NCBI GenBank assembly: GCA_965222935.1
Contig: CBDCVA010000001.1
Coordinates: forward strand, 196,093 to 260,092
Direction of reading: 5' to 3'
Origin: Candidatus Latescibacterota bacterium
GTDB lineage: Bacteria; Latescibacterota; CBDCVA01
Length of the DNA stretch: 64,000 nt
Under the pieces are notes generated by a model. The model was not told where the DNA came from, ran no database searches, and was given only the letters and a program-made list of their open reading frames with translations. How positions within the stretch are numbered: the first letter of the stretch is position 1; the number at the start of each line of letters is the position of its first letter. A program made the position numbers and the translations under genes. Positions 45,556 through 52,815 of the stretch are shown here, in pieces.

Positions 45556-45570
45556 CGCCATCCGAAGCCT

Positions 45571-45630
45571 GATGAGAAGTACATCCTGAGCCCGTCGAGG
45601 GATGAGCGCCTCTTAGTTGCCGGGATCAAG
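45571..45630 (+). repeat. 60-bp direct repeat copy A (~87% identical to 52093-52152)
   Basis: gatgagaagtacatcctgagcccgtcgagggatgagcgcctcttagttgccgggatcaag versus gatgagacgtacatcctgggcccgtcgaaggataagtgcctcctagtcgccgagatcgg. Confidence 0.6.
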
Positions 45631-45635
45631 TCTGC

Positions 45636-45725
45636 GGTTCCCTCACCCGCGCGGGGATAACGCCATTACTGGGATTGGTGCCCCAATCAGCCACCCGGTT
45701 TCCCCGCCGGCGAGGGAAGCCGTGG
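45636..45725 (+). CRISPR. Degenerate type I-E-like CRISPR mini-array (2 repeats of 29 nt flanking one 32-nt spacer)
   Basis: R1 GGTTCCCTCACCCGCGCGGGGATAACGCC (45636-45664); spacer attactgggattggtgccccaatcagccaccc (32 nt); R2 GGTTTCCCCGCCGGCGAGGGAAGCCGTGG (45697-45725). The 61-nt period and palindromic CCCCGC..GCGGGG core match the E. coli-type I-E repeat family. Confidence 0.5.
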
Positions 45726-45773
45726 CGCTCAGAAACCACCATTGATTCCATGCCAAAGAGGGAAACCTGAAGG

Positions 45774-46826
45774 ATGATGAACCGACGCAGCTTTCTGAAG
45801 AAGGCAGGGGCGGCTAGCGCCGTGGGCGCGGCTGCGATTGCGGCCCCGGCGGTGCACGCGCAATCGAAGACAAAGATCAAGTGGCGCCTCCAGACCTATG
45901 CGGGGCCCGCCCTCGCCGAGCACGTCATCAAGCCGTCCATCGATTCGTTCAACAAGGTGGCGAACGGCGAGATGGAAGTCGGACTCTACTTCGCGGACCA
46001 GCTCGTGCCGACCGGCGAGCTTTTCCGGGCCATGCAGCAGGGCACCATCGACGCGGTGCAGTCGGACGACGACTCGATCGCAGCGCCGGTGGACATCTCC
46101 GTATTCGGCGGCTACTTCCCGTTCGCCACTCGGTACAGCCTCGACGTGCCAGCGCTCTTCCACCAATGGGGGCTGAACGAGATCTGGGCGGAAGCCTACG
46201 GTGAAATCGAAGGGGTCACGTGGCTCAGCGCCGGCGCCTGGGACCCGTGTCACTTCAATACCGTCAACCCCATTCGCAGCCTCGAGGGTCTCAAGGGCCT
46301 TCGCGTGTACACCTTCCCTACCGCCGGCCGCTTCCTGTCGCGCTTCGGGGTGGTGCCGGTGACTCTGCCCTGGGAGGACATAGAAGTCGCGGTGCAGACC
46401 GGGGAGTTGGACGGCATGGCTTGGTCCGGTATCACCGAGGACTACACGGCAGGCTGGGCCGACCTCACCAACTACTTCCTCACCAACAGCATCTCGGGCG
46501 CGTGGTGCGGGTCGTACTTCGCCAACTCTGAGAAGTGGGACGCCGTGCCCGCTCACCTTCAGGAGTTGTTCCGGCTCTGCATGGACAGCTCGCACTACTA
46601 CCGCCAGTACTGGTACTGGGGCGGCGAGGCGAAGCTCCGCGTCGACGGCACCAAGCTGGAGCTGACCTCGATCCCAGACGAGGAGTGGGCGAAGGTGGAG
46701 GCCGAGGCGGTCACGTTCTGGGACGAGATCGCGGCCGAGACCCCGCGCACCGCCAAAGTGGTGGGCATCCTGCGGGCCTACAACGAGGCCATGAGCAAGG
46801 CCGGCCGGCCCTACCGGTATTCCTGA
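45774..46826 (+). CDS. TRAP transporter substrate-binding protein (DctP family), Tat signal; no adjacent DctQM genes
   Basis: RRSFLKKAGAASAVGAAA twin-arginine signal; DctP-family pattern. Confidence 0.8.
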   Translation: MMNRRSFLKKAGAASAVGAAAIAAPAVHAQSKTKIKWRLQTYAGPALAEHVIKPSIDSFNKVANGEMEVGLYFADQLVPTGELFRAMQQGTIDAVQSDDDSIAAPVDISVFGGYFPFATRYSLDVPALFHQWGLNEIWAEAYGEIEGVTWLSAGAWDPCHFNTVNPIRSLEGLKGLRVYTFPTAGRFLSRFGVVPVTLPWEDIEVAVQTGELDGMAWSGITEDYTAGWADLTNYFLTNSISGAWCGSYFANSEKWDAVPAHLQELFRLCMDSSHYYRQYWYWGGEAKLRVDGTKLELTSIPDEEWAKVEAEAVTFWDEIAAETPRTAKVVGILRAYNEAMSKAGRPYRYS

Positions 46827-46897
46827 TAGGCCTGAACGGACGAAGCGCAAGCAACAGACCCACGCGCCCGCGGCGAGCCGATGCAGCGGATTATGGA

Positions 46898-47400
46898 ATG
46901 AGGCGCAGCGGTCGTCCCCTCGTTTTCGCCGTTCCGACGCGTACCGCCACCAGGCAGCTTCATGGTCGCGTCAATGAGGCGCTACGCCGGGTGCTCGGTG
47001 CGGATACGCCTGAAGCCGTGCTGGCCATTCCCGGGATGCTGCGCGCGAAGGAGTTAGGGGGCCAACGTCTGTCCCATTGGCGCGTAAAGTGGGACGACGA
47101 TGCAACATTGGTCCCGCAACGATGGGCCGCCGAGCACGCGACGCGATTTCTGGCGGTACCTGTTGGCGTCGGTACTGTGGATCAGACGATGCTTGCCGGA
47201 CTTGGGTGAAATATGCGCCTTTGCGGAGCAGCGCGCTCAATCACAGTCTTCTGGTGATCGACGAGGTTCATGTTTCCGACGCCTACATGGCCGAGATTCT
47301 GGCGCGACTCCTGGATGGGCACCTCGCCACCGGAGGATACGCGATGCTGATGTCTGCGACACTGGATTCGCGACCGGGGGATGCGCCGACGCCCGCTGAA
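46898..47400 (+). pseudogene. cas3: Internal fragment of a Cas3-like SF2 helicase (motifs Ia-II-III only), frameshifted near 47205; lacks the HD domain, Walker A and C-terminal domains
   Basis: Frame 1 (46898-47209) reads ...LVFAVPTRTATRQLHGRV...GTVDQTMLAGLG*; the +1 frame (47209-) reads KYAPLRSSALNHSLLVIDEVHVSDAYMAEILARLLDG...AMLMSATLD. DEVH followed by (A/V)xDAYM fits my recollection of the type I-E Cas3 motif II; SAT is motif III. Truncated at both ends by neighbouring genes. Confidence 0.45.
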
Positions 47401-47414
47401 ACACCGGCCATGCC

Positions 47415-48464
47415 TCACCCAGCAGCGTCCGGAGGCCGGTTCCCCGAGAATACGCTGATTATGCGGTCGACCGAGACCGCGCCGACCGCCGCCCCCGTTA
47501 CGTCCACCACCCGGACCTCCTTGCCCGGCGCTGATGTTGCCAGCGGTAAGGCGTCCTCCAGAGAGGTGCCGACCGGGCAATCCGGCCCGTCGAGTTCGGG
47601 CTTGACGGGCGCCATGATCGAATCGACGCGGATGACACGGCCCCGGTTGATGTTCTTGATGAACGCGGAGATGTAGGCATCGGCCGGCCGCAGGACGATG
47701 TCTTGGGAGTCGCCGTTCTGCACGATCTCGCCGTCGCGCAGAATCGCGATTCGGTCGCCGAGTTCGATTGCCTCTTCGAGATCGTGGGTGACGAACACTA
47801 TGGTCTTGTTCAGATCTCGTTGCAACTCCAGCAGCAACGCCTGCATGTCCGACCGGATCAGCGGATCGAGGGCGCTGAACGGTTCGTCCATCAACAGTAT
47901 CTCGGCGTCGGTCGCCAGCGCGCGGGCCAGTCCGACCCGCTGCTGCATGCCGCCCGAGAGGTGGTGGGGATAGGTTGCTTCGTAACCCGAAAGCTCGACC
48001 CGATCGATCCATTGCCCGGCGCGGCCGGCACGCTCGACGCCGGCGACGCCCTGCATTTCCAGACCGTAGCCGACGTTCTCCATCACGGTCCGGTGGGGCA
48101 GCAGCGCAAAACGCTGGAACACCATGCTGACCCGGTGCCGGCGGAGATGCTGGAGGGCGGCGCGGTCGAGTGCGAGCACGTCCTCGCCGCCGATCCGGAC
48201 CTCGCCCTCGGTCGGATCGATCAGACGGTTGACGTGGCGGATCAGCGTCGATTTGCCTGACCCGCTGAGACCCATGATCACCTGGACATGGCGCGGCGCG
48301 ATGCTCAGGTTGATGTCGCGCAGGCCCAGCACGTGGCCATGGGTTTCCAGCAAGTCCTTTTTGTCAACGCCCTCGTGGACGAGCGGCATCATGGCCGCGG
48401 GATCGGCGCCGAAGACCTTGTAAAGCCCGCGGATTTCGATTCTGTCGCCGGTCGTCATAGTCAT
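47415..48464 (-). CDS. proV: Glycine betaine/proline ABC transporter ATP-binding protein with C-terminal CBS pair (ProV/OpuAA)
   Basis: True start MTMTTGDRIEIRGLYKVFG at comp. 48464; Walker A GLSGSGKST, LSGGMQQRV signature, CBS domains. The 592-aa track ORF carries a ~240-aa artefactual N-terminal extension. Confidence 0.85.
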   Translation of the reverse strand: MTMTTGDRIEIRGLYKVFGADPAAMMPLVHEGVDKKDLLETHGHVLGLRDINLSIAPRHVQVIMGLSGSGKSTLIRHVNRLIDPTEGEVRIGGEDVLALDRAALQHLRRHRVSMVFQRFALLPHRTVMENVGYGLEMQGVAGVERAGRAGQWIDRVELSGYEATYPHHLSGGMQQRVGLARALATDAEILLMDEPFSALDPLIRSDMQALLLELQRDLNKTIVFVTHDLEEAIELGDRIAILRDGEIVQNGDSQDIVLRPADAYISAFIKNINRGRVIRVDSIMAPVKPELDGPDCPVGTSLEDALPLATSAPGKEVRVVDVTGAAVGAVSVDRIISVFSGNRPPDAAG

Positions 48465-49342
48465 GCTTGCCGCGCGGTCTGGATGCGCCGGCCGTAGCTC
48501 TGCGTGATCCTGTCGAACACGATCGCCAGCCCGACGACGGCAGCGCCGTTGAACAGGCCGAGCGCGAAATACTGGTTGGTGACCGCCTGGAGCACCGGTT
48601 GACCGAGGCCCTTGACGCCGATCATGGAGGCGATCACCACCATCGAGAGCGCCATCATGATGGTCTGGTTCACCCCGGCCATGATGTTGGGAAGCGCGAG
48701 CGGCAACTGGACGCCGAAGAGCCGCCGCCACGTGTCGGCGCCGAACGCGTCGGCGGCTTCCAGCACTTCCTTGTCGACCAGCCGGATGCCCAGATTGGTG
48801 AGCCGGATGACCGGCGGCACGGCATAGATCACCACTGCGATCAGCCCCGGTATCTTGCCGAGGCCGAACAGCATGACCACCGGGATTAGATAGACGAAGA
48901 TCGGCATCGTCTGCATGATGTCGAGGATCGGCGTCATGATCGCCTGCACCCGGTCCGAACGCGACATCGCGATCCCGAGCGGGATGCCGATCATGATGGC
49001 AAAGAGCGTGGAGACCAAGATGATGACGAGGGTCCGCATCATATTGTCCCACATGCCGAGAAAGCCAATCGCGAAGAAGGCGATGCCGACGCCGGCGGTC
49101 AGCCGCCTGCTCCGGCTGGCGAAGAAGCACAGCCCCGCGATGGAGGCGATAACCAGCCACCAGGGCGTACCGAGCAGAAACCGCTCGAACCACACCAGAG
49201 TGTAGAGCAGCGGATCGAAAAAGCTCTCGATGGTGTCGCCGTAGGACCTAGAGAAGGCGCGGTACGCCGCGTCGAACGACTTGTGGATAGCCCGCAACGA
49301 GCCTTGCTCGAGGGTCGGGAATTCCACAATCCATTCGATCAC
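48461..49342 (-). CDS. proW: Glycine betaine/proline ABC transporter permease (ProW/OpuAB)
   Basis: 293-aa polytopic permease with an EAA-like loop; stop overlaps the proV start. Confidence 0.85.
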   Translation of the reverse strand: MIEWIVEFPTLEQGSLRAIHKSFDAAYRAFSRSYGDTIESFFDPLLYTLVWFERFLLGTPWWLVIASIAGLCFFASRSRRLTAGVGIAFFAIGFLGMWDNMMRTLVIILVSTLFAIMIGIPLGIAMSRSDRVQAIMTPILDIMQTMPIFVYLIPVVMLFGLGKIPGLIAVVIYAVPPVIRLTNLGIRLVDKEVLEAADAFGADTWRRLFGVQLPLALPNIMAGVNQTIMMALSMVVIASMIGVKGLGQPVLQAVTNQYFALGLFNGAAVVGLAIVFDRITQSYGRRIQTARQA

Positions 49343-49451
49343 GATTCAGTCTCCCCGATAAATCTCGGCTTGCACGAATTCCACATACCCCGCCGCTGGC
49401 GCCCGCGAAGGGGCCGAGGCTGGATGGGTCCGCGCCGGCCGTCGGACGGGC

Positions 49452-50444
49452 TTAGAGACCCGCTTTCACCTTCGCAGTGACATCCGCGGGCACCCAGGCG
49501 CTCCAGACCGCCTCGTGGTTTTTGAGAAAGTACTCGGCGGTCTCCCGAGGAGTCGCCTGATTCTCGTCTTTCCAAGCCAGCAGGCCCTTCAGGAACGCGT
49601 TCGACCAGGAGACGTTAGAGACGAACTCGTACGCGTCGGGCACCCGGTTCGCGAAGCTGGACGTGACTACCGACATCACCATCGATTTCGGATACATGTT
49701 CGGCTTCGGGTCGGCGCAATCCTTGTCTACGACGCACGGCCAAGTCGCGGGATCGTACGTCATCCCACCAAGCTTGACCATCGGGTACTTGCTGAGCAGG
49801 GTCGTCGGCGCCCAATAGTAGGCGAAGATCGACTGCTTGCGCTCATAGGCATGGGCAATCGCGCCCGCCAGCCCCTCGCCGGACCCGGGGTCGAACAGGG
49901 TGAACCCGGCCTCTTTCATGCGGTAGGCCTTGTAAAGGTTGCCGTTGATGATCTGGCAGGCCCAGCCCGACGGGCAGTCATAGAACCGGCCCATGCCCGG
50001 CTCCTCCTTGTCGGGAAACAGGTCGGGCCGCTCGAGGACCGCCTGCAGGGTGGTCAACTCCGGGTTGTCCTTCACCACATAGTCCGGAACCCACCAGCCC
50101 TCTTCGCCGCCATCCGACAGGATCTCGCCGGCAATCTTGAGACGGCCTTCGGCGACCGCCTTCTCGACGACCTCGCGCACCGAATTGATCCAGATCTCGG
50201 GCGCGATATCGGGCTCGTTCTTTTCCGTCATGGAGGTGACCGTCGGCACGGTATCACCGGGCACGAGCTCCGATTCGCAACCGTAACCCTTGGCCAGGAT
50301 GATATCCTCGACGTGGGCCGCGACCGCGGCTGAGGCCCAAGTCATCTCGGCAATCGTCACCTTGCCGCAGGCCACATCGGCACCCCATGCAAGGCCAGGA
50401 GCCATCAAAGCCGCCACGAGTAGTAATCCTGATCTCTTCACCAT
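49452..50444 (-). CDS. proX: Glycine betaine ABC transporter substrate-binding protein (ProX/OpuAC)
   Basis: Start MVKRSGLLLVAALMAPGLAWGAD (signal peptide) at comp. 50444; ProX-family pattern. The 60 N-terminal residues of the track ORF are a TTG-initiated artefact. Confidence 0.8.
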   Translation of the reverse strand: MVKRSGLLLVAALMAPGLAWGADVACGKVTIAEMTWASAAVAAHVEDIILAKGYGCESELVPGDTVPTVTSMTEKNEPDIAPEIWINSVREVVEKAVAEGRLKIAGEILSDGGEEGWWVPDYVVKDNPELTTLQAVLERPDLFPDKEEPGMGRFYDCPSGWACQIINGNLYKAYRMKEAGFTLFDPGSGEGLAGAIAHAYERKQSIFAYYWAPTTLLSKYPMVKLGGMTYDPATWPCVVDKDCADPKPNMYPKSMVMSVVTSSFANRVPDAYEFVSNVSWSNAFLKGLLAWKDENQATPRETAEYFLKNHEAVWSAWVPADVTAKVKAGL

Positions 50445-50518
50445 CGAACTTACCTCCCTTGGTTTAAGACACCGCTGCGTGGATCCACCGGCACGGCGAA
50501 CCCCGTTCCTCTCCCATC

Positions 50519-50541
50519 TATAATATACCGCAATATACCGC
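50519..50541 (-). promoter_or_regulatory. Candidate promoter/operator upstream of proXWV: TATAAT-like box plus tandem ATATACCGC x2 (10-bp period)
   Basis: ctataatATACCGCaatATACCGCgag sits 75-100 nt upstream of the proX start; the tandem repeat is seen in sequence. Confidence 0.3.
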
Positions 50542-50578
50542 GAGCCTCCCAATGGCAATCCTGGGTTCGCGCCCTGTC

Positions 50579-50607
50579 GGTTCCCCCGCCCGCGCGGGGA
50601 TAGCCCC
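50579..50607 (+). repeat. Solitary type I-E-like CRISPR repeat (GGTTCCCCCGCCCGCGCGGGGATAGCCCC)
   Basis: Best-preserved copy of the repeat family at 45636 and 52057, with the same palindromic core. No neighbouring repeat at a 61-nt period. Confidence 0.5.
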
Positions 50608-50650
50608 AGGATGGGTGTCCACAAGGGACGCCCCTACAGGACAGGAGATG

Positions 50651-51475
50651 CTACGGCTTGCGTCCTATCGCCTCTCCCCAGGCGAGGGCGGCGAATGCAC
50701 CGGGGGTATCCTTCCACTGATCGAGCATACGGCGCCAGTCATCGAACTGCTCTTGACTTGCCAGCCCGTGTTTCGTGGCCGCTTCCACGGTATCGGGAGA
50801 GAAGAACCAGCCGATGACGAAACCGTGAAGAAAGTCGATGTCCCCGGTCGTGCTGTAGGATTCAAATGAAGTGCTCGCGTGGATGTCCGAGAACCCGGCT
50901 TCGAGAAACGTACGCTTCAGTTCCTTCCCCATCTGGGGGTGGCCCCCGTTGGCCTCGAGAAGGTTCGAGAACGTCGTCCACGCACCGCGGAGATCGTCGA
51001 GTTCGGGTTCGAAAAACGACGAGGCGCTAATCAGTTCCCGGCTGGAGAGGATACCCCCGGGCTTCAACACCCGCTTCACCTCGGCCAGGGCAGCCTGCGT
51101 GTCCGGAACGTGCATGAGCAGGGCGTGGCAGTGGGCGACATCGAACGAGCCGTCTTCATAGGGAAGATCGGTCACATCGCCTGTCTGGAATACCGCGTTG
51201 TCGTGCCCGCCGGCCGACGCGGCGGCCCGGGCCATCTCGATCTGCGACGCTTCCATCTCGATGCCGTGCAACTCTCCGGGTTCCACCGCTTTTGCGAGCC
51301 CCACCGAAATCGTTCCGGGACCGCAACCGAAGTCGAGAACGCGGAGACCGGGCTCGAGGTACGGGAGCAGATGCGCGGCATTGGTCGTTGCGCTCCGGCG
51401 GCTGAGCAGTTTCTGAAACTCGTCACTGTAACCCATGGTGTAGGTGGGCGTATCCGGGGTCCTGTTGTCAGTCAT
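50651..51475 (-). CDS. Class I SAM-dependent methyltransferase
   Basis: Motif I VLDFGCGPGTIS and post-I/II motifs; 274 aa. Confidence 0.75.
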   Translation of the reverse strand: MTDNRTPDTPTYTMGYSDEFQKLLSRRSATTNAAHLLPYLEPGLRVLDFGCGPGTISVGLAKAVEPGELHGIEMEASQIEMARAAASAGGHDNAVFQTGDVTDLPYEDGSFDVAHCHALLMHVPDTQAALAEVKRVLKPGGILSSRELISASSFFEPELDDLRGAWTTFSNLLEANGGHPQMGKELKRTFLEAGFSDIHASTSFESYSTTGDIDFLHGFVIGWFFSPDTVEAATKHGLASQEQFDDWRRMLDQWKDTPGAFAALAWGEAIGRKP

Positions 51476-51502: not shown

Positions 51503-51703
51503 TCATGATCGTCGGGGCGCCCGCACCTCGACGATGCCGCACGCCTGCGTACCCTGCTCACGGAAGGCGCGGTTCACGCGCACCGGTGTCAGCGCGATCC
51601 GGCCGTTCTCTGCGGTGACGTCGAAATACTCGGTTCTCTTCACGGCCGGGATCAACGCCTTCGGCAGGGTCAACGGGTTCTTGGAGGTCGGTTTGGGGAG
51701 CAT
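51503..51703 (-). CDS. Small SpoVT/AbrB-like (VapB/MazE-type antitoxin-like) DNA-binding protein, orphan
   Basis: 66 aa; MLPKPTSKNPLTLPKALIPAV...GRIALTPV fits the swapped-hairpin K.TSKGQ.T.PK... pattern. The rest of the 233-aa track ORF is noise. Confidence 0.35.
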   Translation of the reverse strand: MLPKPTSKNPLTLPKALIPAVKRTEYFDVTAENGRIALTPVRVNRAFREQGTQACGIVEVRAPRRS

Positions 51704-52056
51704 GGCAAGCGCTCCGATTGAGAATATAAGCGAACCATAGGTCCTTACAAATTCCACGACAGGAATGGCGTCGATAGCCGCCTCCGCGTACGAGCGCCGC
51801 GCCGTGGGCGCTCGTACTGCGGCACTGCGTCGGGCCGCTTCTTGGCGCCCTCGCCAATGATCGCCTGACGACATCGTCCTCTCCGATGCGAGCTCGACGG
51901 CATACGATGGCTGTCGGTCGGTTTGCTCGGCGGAGTTCATATCCTTCTGACCGTCCGAGGCGCCCTGTCGGCGATGTGTGCTTCCTCGGCGAACTGGGCA
52001 TAAGGCGACTGGTTCGGGTTGATGGAGATCAGGCGCAGTCGGTGCGGGCCTGTCAT

Positions 52057-52085
52057 GGTTTCCCCGCCCGCACGGAGATAGACCC
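52057..52085 (+). repeat. Degenerate type I-E-like CRISPR repeat (GGTTTCCCCGCCCGCACGGAGATAGACCC)
   Basis: 24/29 identical to the repeat at 50579; directly followed by copy B of the 60-bp direct repeat. Confidence 0.4.
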
Positions 52086-52092
52086 TGACCGT

Positions 52093-52152
52093 GATGAGAC
52101 GTACATCCTGGGCCCGTCGAAGGATAAGTGCCTCCTAGTCGCCGAGATCGGA
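52093..52152 (+). repeat. 60-bp direct repeat copy B
   Basis: See copy A at 45571-45630. Confidence 0.6.
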
Positions 52153-52227: not shown

Positions 52228-52815
52228 ATGGGCTGCTTCGGCAGGTGGTGGGTTACGCTGGTTACCTCCATTGGGGTTTTGGCGATGGCGTGTGCATCTG
52301 AGCGTGAGCGGGCCGAGATCGGTGACGCCGGTGAGGTGGCAATCCTTGAGACGTCGGCGGGGCGGATCGTCTTGCAGTTCCACGAGGAAGATGCCCCGCG
52401 CCACGTCGGAAACTTCAAGAAGCTCGCCCGGTCGGGTTTTTATGACGGCACGTACTTTCACAGGGTTATCCCGGGTTTTATGGTCCAGGGGGGCGACCCC
52501 AACACTAAGGATGACGACCGTACAAACGATGGGCAGGGCGGCCCCGGATACGCGATTGAGGCGGAGTTCAACGCCCGCAAGCATGTGCGTGGCACCCTTT
52601 CGATGGCGCGCTCGCGCGGCATTCACACGGCCGGATCACAGTTCTTCATCTGCGTGGCGAATGCGCCCCATCTCGACGGTCAGTACACGGCGTTCGGGCA
52701 CGTGCAGGAGGGCATGGAGACCGTGGACGAGATCGTCAGCGTGCCGCGCGACCGTCGGGATAATCCTCTGGAGCCGATTTACCTAGAGCGGGTCACCGTT
52801 ACGAGCTCGCCTTAA
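52228..52815 (+). CDS. Peptidyl-prolyl cis-trans isomerase, cyclophilin type (secreted/lipoprotein)
   Basis: Start at MGCFGRWWVTLVTSIGVLAMACAS (signal/lipobox-like); cyclophilin motifs (FHRVIPGFMVQGGD, SMAR, GSQFFI). The upstream 114 codons of the track ORF overlap the repeat region and are not coding. Confidence 0.8.
   Translation: MGCFGRWWVTLVTSIGVLAMACASERERAEIGDAGEVAILETSAGRIVLQFHEEDAPRHVGNFKKLARSGFYDGTYFHRVIPGFMVQGGDPNTKDDDRTNDGQGGPGYAIEAEFNARKHVRGTLSMARSRGIHTAGSQFFICVANAPHLDGQYTAFGHVQEGMETVDEIVSVPRDRRDNPLEPIYLERVTVTSSP

What the first reader, a model, noticed from the sequence alone, without database searches (positions are those of the whole stretch)
46898..47400. Internal cas3-like helicase fragment, frameshifted near 47205 and truncated by flanking genes
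Helicase motifs Ia (VPTRTATRQL), II (LLVIDEVHVSDAYM) and III (MSATLD) are readable across two frames that meet exactly at 47207-47209. The HD nuclease domain and Walker A (GSGKT) are absent on the 5' side, and motifs IV-VI are absent on the 3' side where proV ends. DEVH followed by xxDAYM is, to my recollection, the type I-E Cas3 motif II, and the adjacent I-E-like repeats corroborate this.
Basis: partly seen in the sequence, partly recalled or inferred. Interest (0 to 1): 0.55.

Follow-up and report, generated by a model that had tools for sequence, protein, structure and literature searches.

The report
Dead fragment of a CRISPR cas3 gene
This is a roughly 460-base, frameshifted leftover of a type I-E CRISPR cas3 helicase gene, lying among a few stray CRISPR repeats in a defence locus that was mostly deleted and now holds transporter genes; it is an ordinary pseudogene, not a working gene.

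Summary
Window 46916-47374 (+) is homologous to the RecA1 part of type I-E Cas3, from motif Ia through motif II (DEVH) to motif III (SAT). It is read in two frames joined by a 1-nt deletion at about 47203-47206.

- **Family:** profile and structure-sequence searches put it in Cas3e (PADLOC Cas3e E=1.7e-39; NCBIfam NF007248 E=2.8e-18; PDB 4q2c Cas3 E=6e-13). No non-Cas helicase family gave a better match.
- **Closest relative:** 77% aa identity, in a canonical I-E operon whose CRISPR repeat differs by 2 nt from a solitary repeat in the window.
- **What is missing:** the HD domain, Walker A and motifs IV-VI. No other cas remnant exists in the 64 kb.
- **Repeats:** there is no regular array next to the fragment. 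There is a one-spacer mini-array 1.25 kb upstream and two solitary repeats 3.2 and 4.7 kb downstream, all on the + strand.
- **Neighbours:** dctP appears horizontally acquired; proVWX is convergent with the fragment.
- **Reality and age:** the same junctions and frameshift occur in several independent assemblies, including a sister lineage at 96.7% identity. The fragment evolves without protein-level constraint (dN/dS about 0.8).

Verdict: a real but ordinary relic of a decayed I-E CRISPR-Cas locus, of low interest.

The parts
46916..47205 (+). cas3e relic, 5' part (frame A): motif Ia (AVPTRTATRQL) to GTVDQ...AGL. Corresponds to residues 108-202 of homologue P0001, and the whole relic to about 359-518 of T. 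terrenum Cas3.
   Evidence: (76% aa)
47203..47206 (+). Frameshift: a 1-nt deletion relative to intact homologues. Frame A then hits TGA at 47207-47209.
   Evidence: alignment. The same state is present in L002, L083, L168 and L169.
47206..47374 (+). cas3e relic, 3' part (frame B): VKYAPLR, motif II LLVIDEVHVSDAYM, motif III MSATL. Homology ends about 47365-47374.
   Evidence: (79% aa)
46827..46915 (.). Junction segment between the dctP stop and the relic. No detectable homology to cas3 or to dctP-bearing genomes beyond 46838.
47375..47414 (.). Junction segment between the relic and the proV stop codon; origin unknown.
45570..45627 (+). 58-nt segment 'seg_L', ending 8 nt before R1. It is 86% identical to seg_R. 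It may be leader-like or att-like; its role is unresolved.
45636..45664 (+). CRISPR repeat R1 (GGTTCCCTCACCCGCGCGGGGATAACGCC), I-E type. Its stem is polymorphic among strains.
   Evidence: (E=5.7e-7)
45665..45696 (+). Single 32-nt spacer, ATTACTGGGATTGGTGCCCCAATCAGCCACCC.
   Evidence: No protospacer was found.
45697..45725 (+). Degenerate terminal repeat R1b, in exact 61-nt phase with R1. dctP-related DNA starts within it or just after it.
   Evidence: (D4)
45774..46826 (+). dctP-type solute-binding protein gene. The homologous insert is about 45710/45738-46838. It is 87-89% nt identical to four gammaproteobacterial MAGs with no flank synteny, so a single-gene horizontal acquisition is likely.
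47415..50444 (-). proV (47415-48464), proW (48461-49342) and proX/OpuAC (49452-50444). This glycine-betaine-type ABC transporter operon is convergent with the relic. It occupies the place where the cas3 3' half, the Cascade genes and cas1-cas2 would be expected.
50579..50607 (+). Solitary CRISPR repeat R2 (GGTTCCCCCGCCCGCGCGGGGATAGCCCC). It differs by 2 nt from the repeat of the L001 I-E array.
   Evidence: E=9e-8
52057..52085 (+). Solitary, degenerate CRISPR repeat R3 (GGTTTCCCCGCCCGCACGGAGATAGACCC); its stem is broken.
   Evidence: E=1.6e-7
52092..52149 (+). 58-nt segment 'seg_R', starting 6 nt after R3; a direct repeat of seg_L.

Best explanation
The feature is a non-functional pseudogene fragment, the last recognisable piece of a type I-E cas3 gene.

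**Proposed history (inferred).** An ancestor carried a I-E CRISPR-Cas locus on the + strand. Deletions and replacements then removed the HD domain and Walker A on the 5' side, and the rest of cas3 plus cse1-cse2-cas7-cas5-cas6e-cas1-cas2 on the 3' side. A horizontally acquired dctP gene now lies upstream and a convergent proVWX operon downstream. The arrays collapsed to a one-spacer mini-array and two solitary repeats.

**Since then.** The 459-bp remnant sits in a convergent intergenic gap, where nothing selects for its removal. It has drifted neutrally, gaining a 1-nt deletion and replacements at otherwise invariant residues. It has been inherited vertically by at least two sister lineages.

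**Function.** It does nothing. Lacking Walker A, motifs IV-VI, the HD domain, a start codon and an open frame, it cannot bind ATP, unwind or cut DNA.

**Shown:** homology, boundaries, the frameshift, the absence of other cas genes, the repeat identity, and presence in independent assemblies. **Inferred:** the order of events, and that decay happened in place.
For: **Cas3e identity**
- NF007248, profile positions 334-481 of 878, E=2.8e-18; TIGR01587 E=2.3e-14.
- PADLOC Cas3e E=1.7e-39 against Cas3b 1.7e-12.
- PDB 4q2c/4q2d and 4qqw/6c66 Cas3.
- Best relative P0001 at 77% aa, inside a I-E operon with an array.

**Fragment limits and frameshift**
-.
- No other cas homology in 45-53 kb or in the whole window.

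**Repeats**
- Repeats of the same type, all on the + strand like the relic: chance expectation 0.01 against 3 found.
- 2 nt from the L001 array repeat.
- R1b lies in 61-nt phase with R1.

**Not an artefact**
- Identical structure in L002 (JGI, 98.4%), L083 (99.7%) and L168/L169 (96.7%, 4.2 Mb and 1.4 Mb contigs). L084-L087 and L171-L174 confirm the flanks.

**Relaxed constraint**
- Window against L168: 3 synonymous and 7 non-synonymous changes, dN/dS about 0.8, against 0.05-0.57 in the nine neighbouring genes compared.
- 6 or 7 of the 8 differences from L002 inside frame A change the amino acid (P0002 sequence).
- 5 unique replacements at positions invariant in 9 homologues, including DEVH-A to V, against 0-3 in the others.
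- GC3 of 0.65-0.68 against 0.73-0.89 for the intact genes checked.
- R1 is polymorphic in its stem among strains.

**dctP as a foreign insert**
- 87-89% nt identity to MAGs L003-L006, confined to the gene.
Against: - The substitution counts are small (10 and 8 changes), so the neutrality estimate is imprecise.
- The relic's total divergence from L168 (2.4%) is no higher than that of neighbouring coding genes. It is comparable to the local synonymous rate of proV (dS 0.034) but lower than that of several other neighbours.
- No relative with an intact locus or an empty site at this position was found. Decay in place therefore cannot be told apart from arrival of an already broken locus.
- No expression data are available.
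- The 58-nt direct repeat bracketing the block is not explained by this model.
Confidence: 0.9

Rival explanations
1. The relic and its repeats did not decay in place. They arrived already fragmentary, as part of an integrated island or a recombined foreign segment. The 6.5-kb block from R1 to R3 would have been inserted between ORF165 and the cyclophilin gene, with the 58-nt direct repeats as att-like scars.
For: - 58-nt direct repeats at 86% identity lie 8 nt outside R1 and 6 nt outside R3 and bracket the whole block.
- dctP inside the block appears horizontally acquired.
- GC3 of dctP and proVWX (0.82-0.89) lies at the upper end of, or just above, the 0.73-0.83 of the other intact genes checked.
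Against: - There is no integrase, transposase or tRNA at the borders.
- The repeats are only 86% identical.
- No empty-site relative was found.
- The block is shared by all sampled lineages.
- The segment could equally be a duplicated CRISPR leader.
Confidence: 0.2
2. The fragment is retained because it is useful, for example as a small protein (the 103-aa ORF called by JGI), a decoy, or a regulatory or 3'-UTR element for dctP or proV.
For: - It has persisted without indels across lineages that differ by dS 0.03-0.16.
- A gene caller annotated a 103-aa 'Cas3' ORF.
Against: - dN/dS is about 0.8, and most polymorphisms change the amino acid.
- There is no Shine-Dalgarno-like sequence before the ATG at 46898.
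- Three other assemblies' gene calls leave the gap empty.
- No promoter or terminator signal lies in the gap.
- Walker A is missing, so no ATPase activity is possible.
Confidence: 0.04
3. It is an assembly or sequencing artefact: an intact cas3 broken by a homopolymer error or by a chimeric join.
For: Several related contigs come from low-coverage long-read assemblies. The closest homologous operon (L001) is itself split into many ORFs and has an irregular array.
Against: The same 1-nt deletion and the same two truncation points occur in five assemblies from three or more samples, made by different centres, at up to 27x coverage by the contig names. These include a lineage 3.3% divergent.
Confidence: 0.01
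4. It is a fragment of a non-Cas SF2 helicase such as Lhr, HrpB or a DEAD-box protein.
For: Pfam reports only a weak generic DEAD/DEAH-box match (E=0.018).
Against: All specific profiles and solved structures that match are Cas3, and Cas3e is the best by far. The close homologues lie in I-E operons.
Confidence: 0.005

Closest known systems
Type I-E Cas3 (Cas3e): E. coli YgcB-type model NF007248; solved structures of Thermobaculum terrenum (4q2c) and Thermobifida fusca (4qqw, 6c66) Cas3
   Same: It has the same RecA1 core with motif Ia, the GTVDQ segment, motif II DEVHxxDxYM and motif III SAT. It aligns to residues 359-518 of 4q2c and to profile positions 334-481 of 878 in NF007248.
   Different: Only about 153 of roughly 900 residues remain. 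The HD nuclease, Walker A, motifs IV-VI and the C-terminal domain are all missing. It is frameshifted and carries 5 replacements at otherwise invariant positions. It is a descendant of the family, not a functional member.
The I-E locus on metagenomic contig L001 (ENA ERZ21830300 ctg607508l)
   Same: Its cas3 is the closest relative (77% aa, 76.6% nt). Its CRISPR repeat GGTTCCCCCGCCTGCGCGGGGATAGGCCC differs by 2 nt from window repeat R2. The cas3-then-array order and orientation match the window layout.
   Different: L001 keeps cse1, cas7e, cas5e, cas6e, cas1e, cas2e and a multi-spacer array. The window keeps none of these.
Degraded CRISPR-Cas loci, orphan arrays and mini-arrays described in comparative genomics, for example loss of I-E cas genes in E. 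coli lineages and 'CRISPR arrays away from cas genes' (from my own knowledge; the papers listed hold these search terms but were not read)
   Same: cas genes reduced to pseudogene fragments, arrays collapsed to one or a few repeats, and unrelated genes occupying the locus.
   Different: Nothing differs in principle. The particular feature here is how far decay has gone: one 459-bp cas3 piece and four repeats spread over 6.5 kb.
An independent cas3e relic on L170 (ENA ERZ26694273 contig_3, 3.8 Mb)
   Same: It is also an internal, frameshifted fragment of the same Cas3e clade, matching residues 1-230 of P0001. It is embedded among transporter and hydrolase genes with no other cas genes.
   Different: The genome and neighbours are different. 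It retains the Walker A region. No CRISPR repeats lie within 10 kb.

Membership tests
Cas3, type I-E (Cas3e) | Sequence matches Cas3e-specific profiles better than other helicase or Cas3 subtypes | tested here: met
   PADLOC Cas3e E=1.7e-39 against the next subtype, Cas3b, at 1.7e-12. NF007248 is the best NCBIfam hit. Only Cas3 structures match significantly in the PDB.
Cas3, type I-E (Cas3e) | Reaches the curated whole-protein score of the family model | tested here: not met
   65.4 bits against a cut-off of 569 for NF007248, and 53.3 against 102.45 for TIGR01587. Only 148 of 878 profile positions are covered.
Cas3, type I-E (Cas3e) | Complete SF2 helicase core (motifs I, Ia, II, III, IV, V, VI) | tested here: not met
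   Only motifs Ia, II and III are present. Walker A and motifs IV-VI lie outside the homology limits 46916-47374.
Cas3, type I-E (Cas3e) | N-terminal HD nuclease domain | tested here: not met
   A tblastn search with the L001 HD region found nothing in the window. Upstream of 46916 the sequence is unrelated.
Cas3, type I-E (Cas3e) | Uninterrupted open reading frame with a start codon | tested here: not met
   There is a 1-nt deletion at about 47203-47206 and a stop at 47207-47209. There is no native start.
Cas3, type I-E (Cas3e) | Linked Cascade (cse1, cse2, cas7, cas5, cas6e) and cas1-cas2 genes | tested here: not met
   tblastn with all L001 Cas proteins found only the cas3 piece in the 64 kb.
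Type I-E CRISPR array | 29-nt repeat with a CCCCGC...GCGGGG stem and an ATAxxxxx 3' handle, matching repeats of a I-E locus | tested here: met
   R2 is 2 nt from the L001 array repeat. R1 and R3 are degenerate copies.
Type I-E CRISPR array | Regular repeat-spacer periodicity (about 61 nt) with several units | tested here: inconclusive
   There is only one unit: R1, a 32-nt spacer and degenerate R1b in exact 61-nt phase. R2 and R3 are solitary. Tandem Repeats Finder and Rfam found no array.
Type I-E CRISPR array | Leader sequence upstream of the first repeat | tested here: inconclusive
   The 58-nt segment ending 8 nt before R1 has a second copy after R3. It does not resemble the L001 leader.
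Non-Cas SF2 helicases (Lhr, HrpB, DEAD-box) | Best match to those families | tested here: not met
   None of these appears in the NCBIfam, PADLOC or PDB results. Pfam gives only a DEAD-box match at E=0.018, below threshold.

The most novel reading that the evidence does not exclude
The remains of the CRISPR locus acted as a gene-capture or recombination platform, or were themselves a mobile island.
- Each gene block (dctP; proVWX; methyltransferase plus the small AbrB-like ORF) is bordered by a CRISPR repeat.
- The foreign dctP DNA starts at or within the terminal repeat of the mini-array.
- The whole 6.5-kb block is bracketed by 58-nt direct repeats placed 6-8 nt outside the outermost CRISPR repeats.

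This would mean that recombination at CRISPR repeats, or at a leader/att-like site, brought in the transporter genes that replaced the cas operon.
Probability: 0.08. Interest if true: 0.45.

Novelty: already known. Interest (0 to 1): 0.12.

Why it matters
It matters little beyond annotation.
- The 103-aa 'Cas3' ORF called in one public metagenome is a pseudogene piece and should not be counted as a CRISPR-Cas system.
- The lineage, sampled in several metagenomes, has lost this I-E system.

As a worked example it shows how far a CRISPR-Cas locus can erode (one 459-bp cas3 piece and four repeats over 6.5 kb) while staying recognisable. It also shows such relics being inherited across lineage splits. 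A second, independent relic of the same Cas3e clade (L170) suggests that such fragments are not rare.

Tried and rejected
- **Array detection.** Tandem Repeats Finder, short-range direct-repeat search and Rfam (at gathering thresholds and at E<=1) found no CRISPR array. The repeats were found only by pattern and HMM search.
- **A mis-specified pattern.** My first stem-loop pattern with 5 Ns gave only chance-level hits. A pattern with 11 Ns instead of 10 found nothing in the loci.
- **Genome scan with DctP.** It returned 80 loci, but they share only the dctP gene with the window.
- **Metagenome scan with the neighbouring MBL-fold protein.** It returned only relatives at 61% aa identity or less, with no synteny.
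- **Search for an ancestral state.** No relative with an intact locus or an empty site was obtained.
- **Unfiltered tblastx of L001 against the window.** It was swamped by composition-driven hits. It was replaced by tblastn with the individual Cas proteins.
- **Protospacer search.** Two 22-mers of the single spacer found nothing in viral contigs.
- **Look-ups that failed.** The exact window DctP and P0020 (Rhodovulum viride) were not on record.
- **The 58-nt segment.** I considered that it is the 3' end of cas2 or part of the cyclophilin gene. Both were rejected: there is no tblastn signal for Cas2, and the cyclophilin most likely starts at 52228, as called in L083, where the product begins with what looks like a lipoprotein signal peptide.
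- **Mobile-element and expression signals.** I looked for IS or transposon-like inverted repeats and for promoter or terminator signals around the relic. Nothing exceeded chance.
- **Host taxon.** Not determined; I chose not to spend a large database search on it.

Full report

Yes. Reading window 46000-48400 and the ORF table gives two frames.
- Frame A reads ...GRPLVFAVPTRTATRQLHGRVNEALRRVLGADTPEAVLAIPGMLRAKELGGQRLSHWRVKWDDDATLVPQRWAAEHATRFLAVPVGVGTVDQTMLAGLG, then TGA at 47207-47209.
- Frame B starts at GTG 47206 and reads VKYAPLRSSALNHSLLVIDEVHVSDAYMAEILARLLDGHLATGGYAMLMSATLDSR...

The joined peptide gave these matches:
- NCBIfam NF007248 (CRISPR-associated helicase/endonuclease Cas3, E. 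coli type): E=2.8e-18 over profile positions 334-481 of 878.
- TIGR01587 (cas3_core): E=2.3e-14.
- PADLOC Cas3e: E=1.7e-39, against 1.7e-12 for the next subtype, Cas3b.
- Solved structures: only Cas3 proteins match significantly, namely 4q2c/4q2d at E=6.3e-13 (residues 359-518 of 949) and 4qqw/6c66 at E=1.2e-7.
- Pfam: only a sub-threshold generic DEAD-box match.

**2. Exact anatomy**

The closest relative in the protein database, P0001 (77% identity, E=1e-63), lies on contig L001. L001 carries a type I-E operon with Cse1, Cas7e, Cas5e, Cas6e, Cas1e and Cas2e, followed by a CRISPR array.
- Nucleotide alignment of the window to L001 shows homology only from about 46916 to about 47374. It is 76.6% over 457 nt, with a clean loss of similarity on both sides.
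- The frame change is one missing base: window GGACT-TGGGTGAAA against L001 GGGCTCCAGGTGAAG.
- At protein level the two halves match residues 108-202 and 204-256 of P0001.
- The fragment therefore starts about 20 residues after the Walker A GSGKT (residues 85-89 of P0001) and stops just after motif III. The HD domain, motif I, motifs IV-VI and the C-terminal domain are gone.
- tblastn with every Cas protein of L001, and with its HD region, finds nothing else in the 64-kb window.
- Stretches of 89 nt (46827-46915) and 40 nt (47375-47414), of unknown origin, separate the relic from the dctP stop and the proV stop.

**3. The repeats**

No array was found by Tandem Repeats Finder, a short-range repeat search or Rfam. 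A pattern search found three copies of a I-E-like repeat, all on the + strand, where 0.01 were expected by chance. An HMM built from the L001 and window repeats confirmed them and added a fourth, partial copy.

| Repeat | Coordinates | Note |
|---|---|---|
| R1 | 45636-45664 | first repeat of the mini-array |
| R1b | 45697-45725 | degenerate; exactly 61 nt after R1, leaving a 32-nt spacer |
| R2 | 50579-50607 | solitary |
| R3 | 52057-52085 | solitary; stem broken |

- R2 differs by 2 nt from the repeat of the L001 array.
They are a one-spacer mini-array 1.25 kb upstream and two solitary repeats 3.2 and 4.7 kb downstream, not an adjacent array.
- Their strand, and their order relative to the cas3 piece, match the cas3-to-cas2-to-array layout of L001.

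**4. Surroundings**

The gene order is:
- ORF165 (no family match);
- a 58-nt segment, then R1, the spacer and R1b;
- dctP (45774-46826, +);
- the cas3 relic;
- proV, proW and proX on the minus strand (47415-50444);
- R2;
- a class I methyltransferase (50651-51475, -) and a 66-aa ORF (51503-51703, -) that looks AbrB-like by eye but has no family match;
- R3, then a second copy of the 58-nt segment;
- cyclophilin and rhomboid genes.

dctP is 87-89% identical at the nucleotide level to four gammaproteobacterial MAGs (L003-L006). The similarity is confined to the gene plus at most about 65 nt upstream and 12 nt downstream, and no flank is shared. By contrast, the neighbouring MBL-fold gene has no relative above 61% aa identity in the metagenome scan outside this lineage. 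This points to a single-gene horizontal acquisition. Its left junction lies at or just after R1b (45710-45738). Short-read contigs of this organism break exactly at the start of dctP. That would fit near-identical copies in other members of the community, but I did not test it.

**5. Real, and old**

The same structure is present in independent assemblies:
- L002 (JGI 3300047102): 98.4% identical over 46722-47941. Its called 103-aa 'Cas3' ORF, P0002, ends at the same AGLG-stop.
- L083 (ENA ERZ25067264): 99.7%.
- L084-L087 and L171-L174: cover the flanks.
- L168 and L169: contigs of 4.2 Mb and 1.4 Mb from a sister lineage at 96.7% identity, with the same gene order and, within the relic, no indel relative to the window.

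So the frameshift and both truncation points are not sequencing or assembly errors. They predate the split of these lineages (dS 0.03-0.16 in neighbouring genes).

**6. Is it under selection?**

- Between the window and L168, the relic has 3 synonymous and 7 non-synonymous differences, giving dN/dS of about 0.8. The nine neighbouring genes compared give 0.05-0.57.
- Against L002, 6 or 7 of the 8 differences inside frame A change the amino acid (compared with the P0002 sequence).
- In an alignment with nine homologues, the relic has five unique replacements at positions invariant in all the others (A14T, A83V, A86G, R112H, and A122V within DEVH-A-SD). The others have 0-3.
- Its GC3 (0.65-0.68) is below that of every intact gene checked (0.73-0.89).
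- R1 differs at 3-4 stem positions among strains, R2 carries a 5-nt insertion in L168, and R3 varies as well.
- The numbers are small, but all point to drift without protein-level constraint.
- The relic's overall divergence (2.4%) is similar to the local synonymous rate of the adjacent proV (0.034). It is therefore not unexpectedly conserved.
- No promoter-like or terminator-like site lies in the gap.

**7. Best explanation**

This is a dead relic of a type I-E cas3 gene in a CRISPR-Cas locus that has almost completely eroded. The cas3 5' third, the cas3 3' half, the Cascade genes and cas1-cas2 are gone. A foreign dctP gene lies upstream and a convergent proVWX operon downstream. The arrays are reduced to four repeats. 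The remnant survives because it sits between two convergent genes, where deletion brings little benefit.

The homology, the limits, the frameshift, the absence of other cas genes and the inheritance are shown. The order of events, and decay in place as opposed to import of an already broken locus, are inferred.

**8. Unresolved**

A 58-nt direct repeat (45570-45627 and 52092-52149, 86% identical) lies 8 nt before R1 and 6 nt after R3, and so brackets the whole block.
- It could be a duplicated leader-proximal segment, or an att-like scar of an island that carried the CRISPR-Cas locus.
- It does not resemble the L001 leader, has no Rfam match and has no further copies in the window or in any fetched locus.
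- I could not obtain a relative with an empty or intact site to decide between these readings.

**9. Comparison with what is known, and verdict**

Functionally and by descent the fragment belongs to Cas3e. As a gene it fails the defining tests: curated score, complete helicase core, HD domain, open frame and linked Cascade genes. It should be filed as a pseudogene fragment.

Eroded CRISPR-Cas loci, orphan arrays and mini-arrays are well documented (my own knowledge; the literature search returned papers holding the search terms, which I did not read). A second, independent relic of the same Cas3e clade turned up in an unrelated 3.8-Mb contig (L170). The finding is correct but ordinary: novelty is 'already known' and interest is low.

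Noticed in passing
window 45570-45725: A minimal CRISPR array: a leader-like 58-nt segment, repeat R1, one 32-nt spacer (ATTACTGGGATTGGTGCCCCAATCAGCCACCC) and a degenerate terminal repeat in exact 61-nt phase. The spacer is identical in L083 and the four JGI contigs and differs by one base in L168, while R1 is polymorphic in its stem. No exact 22-mer protospacer occurs in viral contigs.
   Followed up: partly
window 45570-45627 and 52092-52149: A 58-nt direct repeat (86% identical) placed 8 nt before R1 and 6 nt after R3, bracketing the 6.5-kb block that holds all the CRISPR relics. It may be a leader duplicate or an att-like scar; this was not resolved. In L168 the left copy carries two changes that make it more like the right copy of the window.
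   Followed up: partly
window 45710-46838 (dctP 45774-46826): A lone TRAP-type solute-binding protein gene with no dctQ/dctM partner called in the stretch examined. It is 87-89% nt identical to four gammaproteobacterial MAGs (L003-L006), with similarity confined to the gene, so single-gene horizontal transfer is likely. Short-read contigs of this organism (L171-L174) all end at its start.
   Followed up: partly
L170:10262-10962 (ENA ERZ26694273 contig_3, 3.8 Mb): An independent frameshifted cas3e relic (residues 1-230 of P0001, with Walker A retained). It is fused in frame to the end of a peptide-transporter gene cluster, with no other cas genes or I-E repeats within 10 kb.
   Followed up: partly
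protein hits P0001-P0049: All 49 database homologues of the relic are 301 aa or shorter, although Cas3e is about 900 aa. Several sit on long contigs, and one (P0020, Rhodovulum viride) has a degenerate Walker A. I did not establish whether this reflects fragmented gene calls in error-prone assemblies, widespread pseudogenisation of this clade, or a bias of the search index.
   Followed up: no
window 51835-52043 and 51514-51565: Two indels separate the window lineage from the sister lineage L168/L169. One is 209 nt, just upstream of R3. The other is 52 nt at the 3' end of the small AbrB-like ORF. The 209-nt piece reads on the minus strand as a plausible protein fragment (…RLISINPNQSPYAQFAEEAHIADRAP…), possibly another gene relic.
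   Followed up: no
window 49452-51475, compared with L083: Divergence from the otherwise almost identical L083 is concentrated in proX, the R2 spacer region and the methyltransferase gene (1.4-2.4%, against 0-0.3% in the other genes). This suggests a recent recombination tract between strains.
   Followed up: no
L001:10238-11700: The CRISPR array of the closest I-E locus is irregular, with repeat spacings of roughly 50-110 nt, truncated repeats and partial repeats. Its cas3 and cse1 are split into several ORFs. This is either a low-coverage long-read consensus problem or a second decaying locus.
   Followed up: no
window 50522-50541: A perfect tandem AATATACCGC x2 in the AT-rich stretch upstream of proX (minus strand), between the proX start and R2. 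It may be part of a promoter or operator for proXWV.
   Followed up: no
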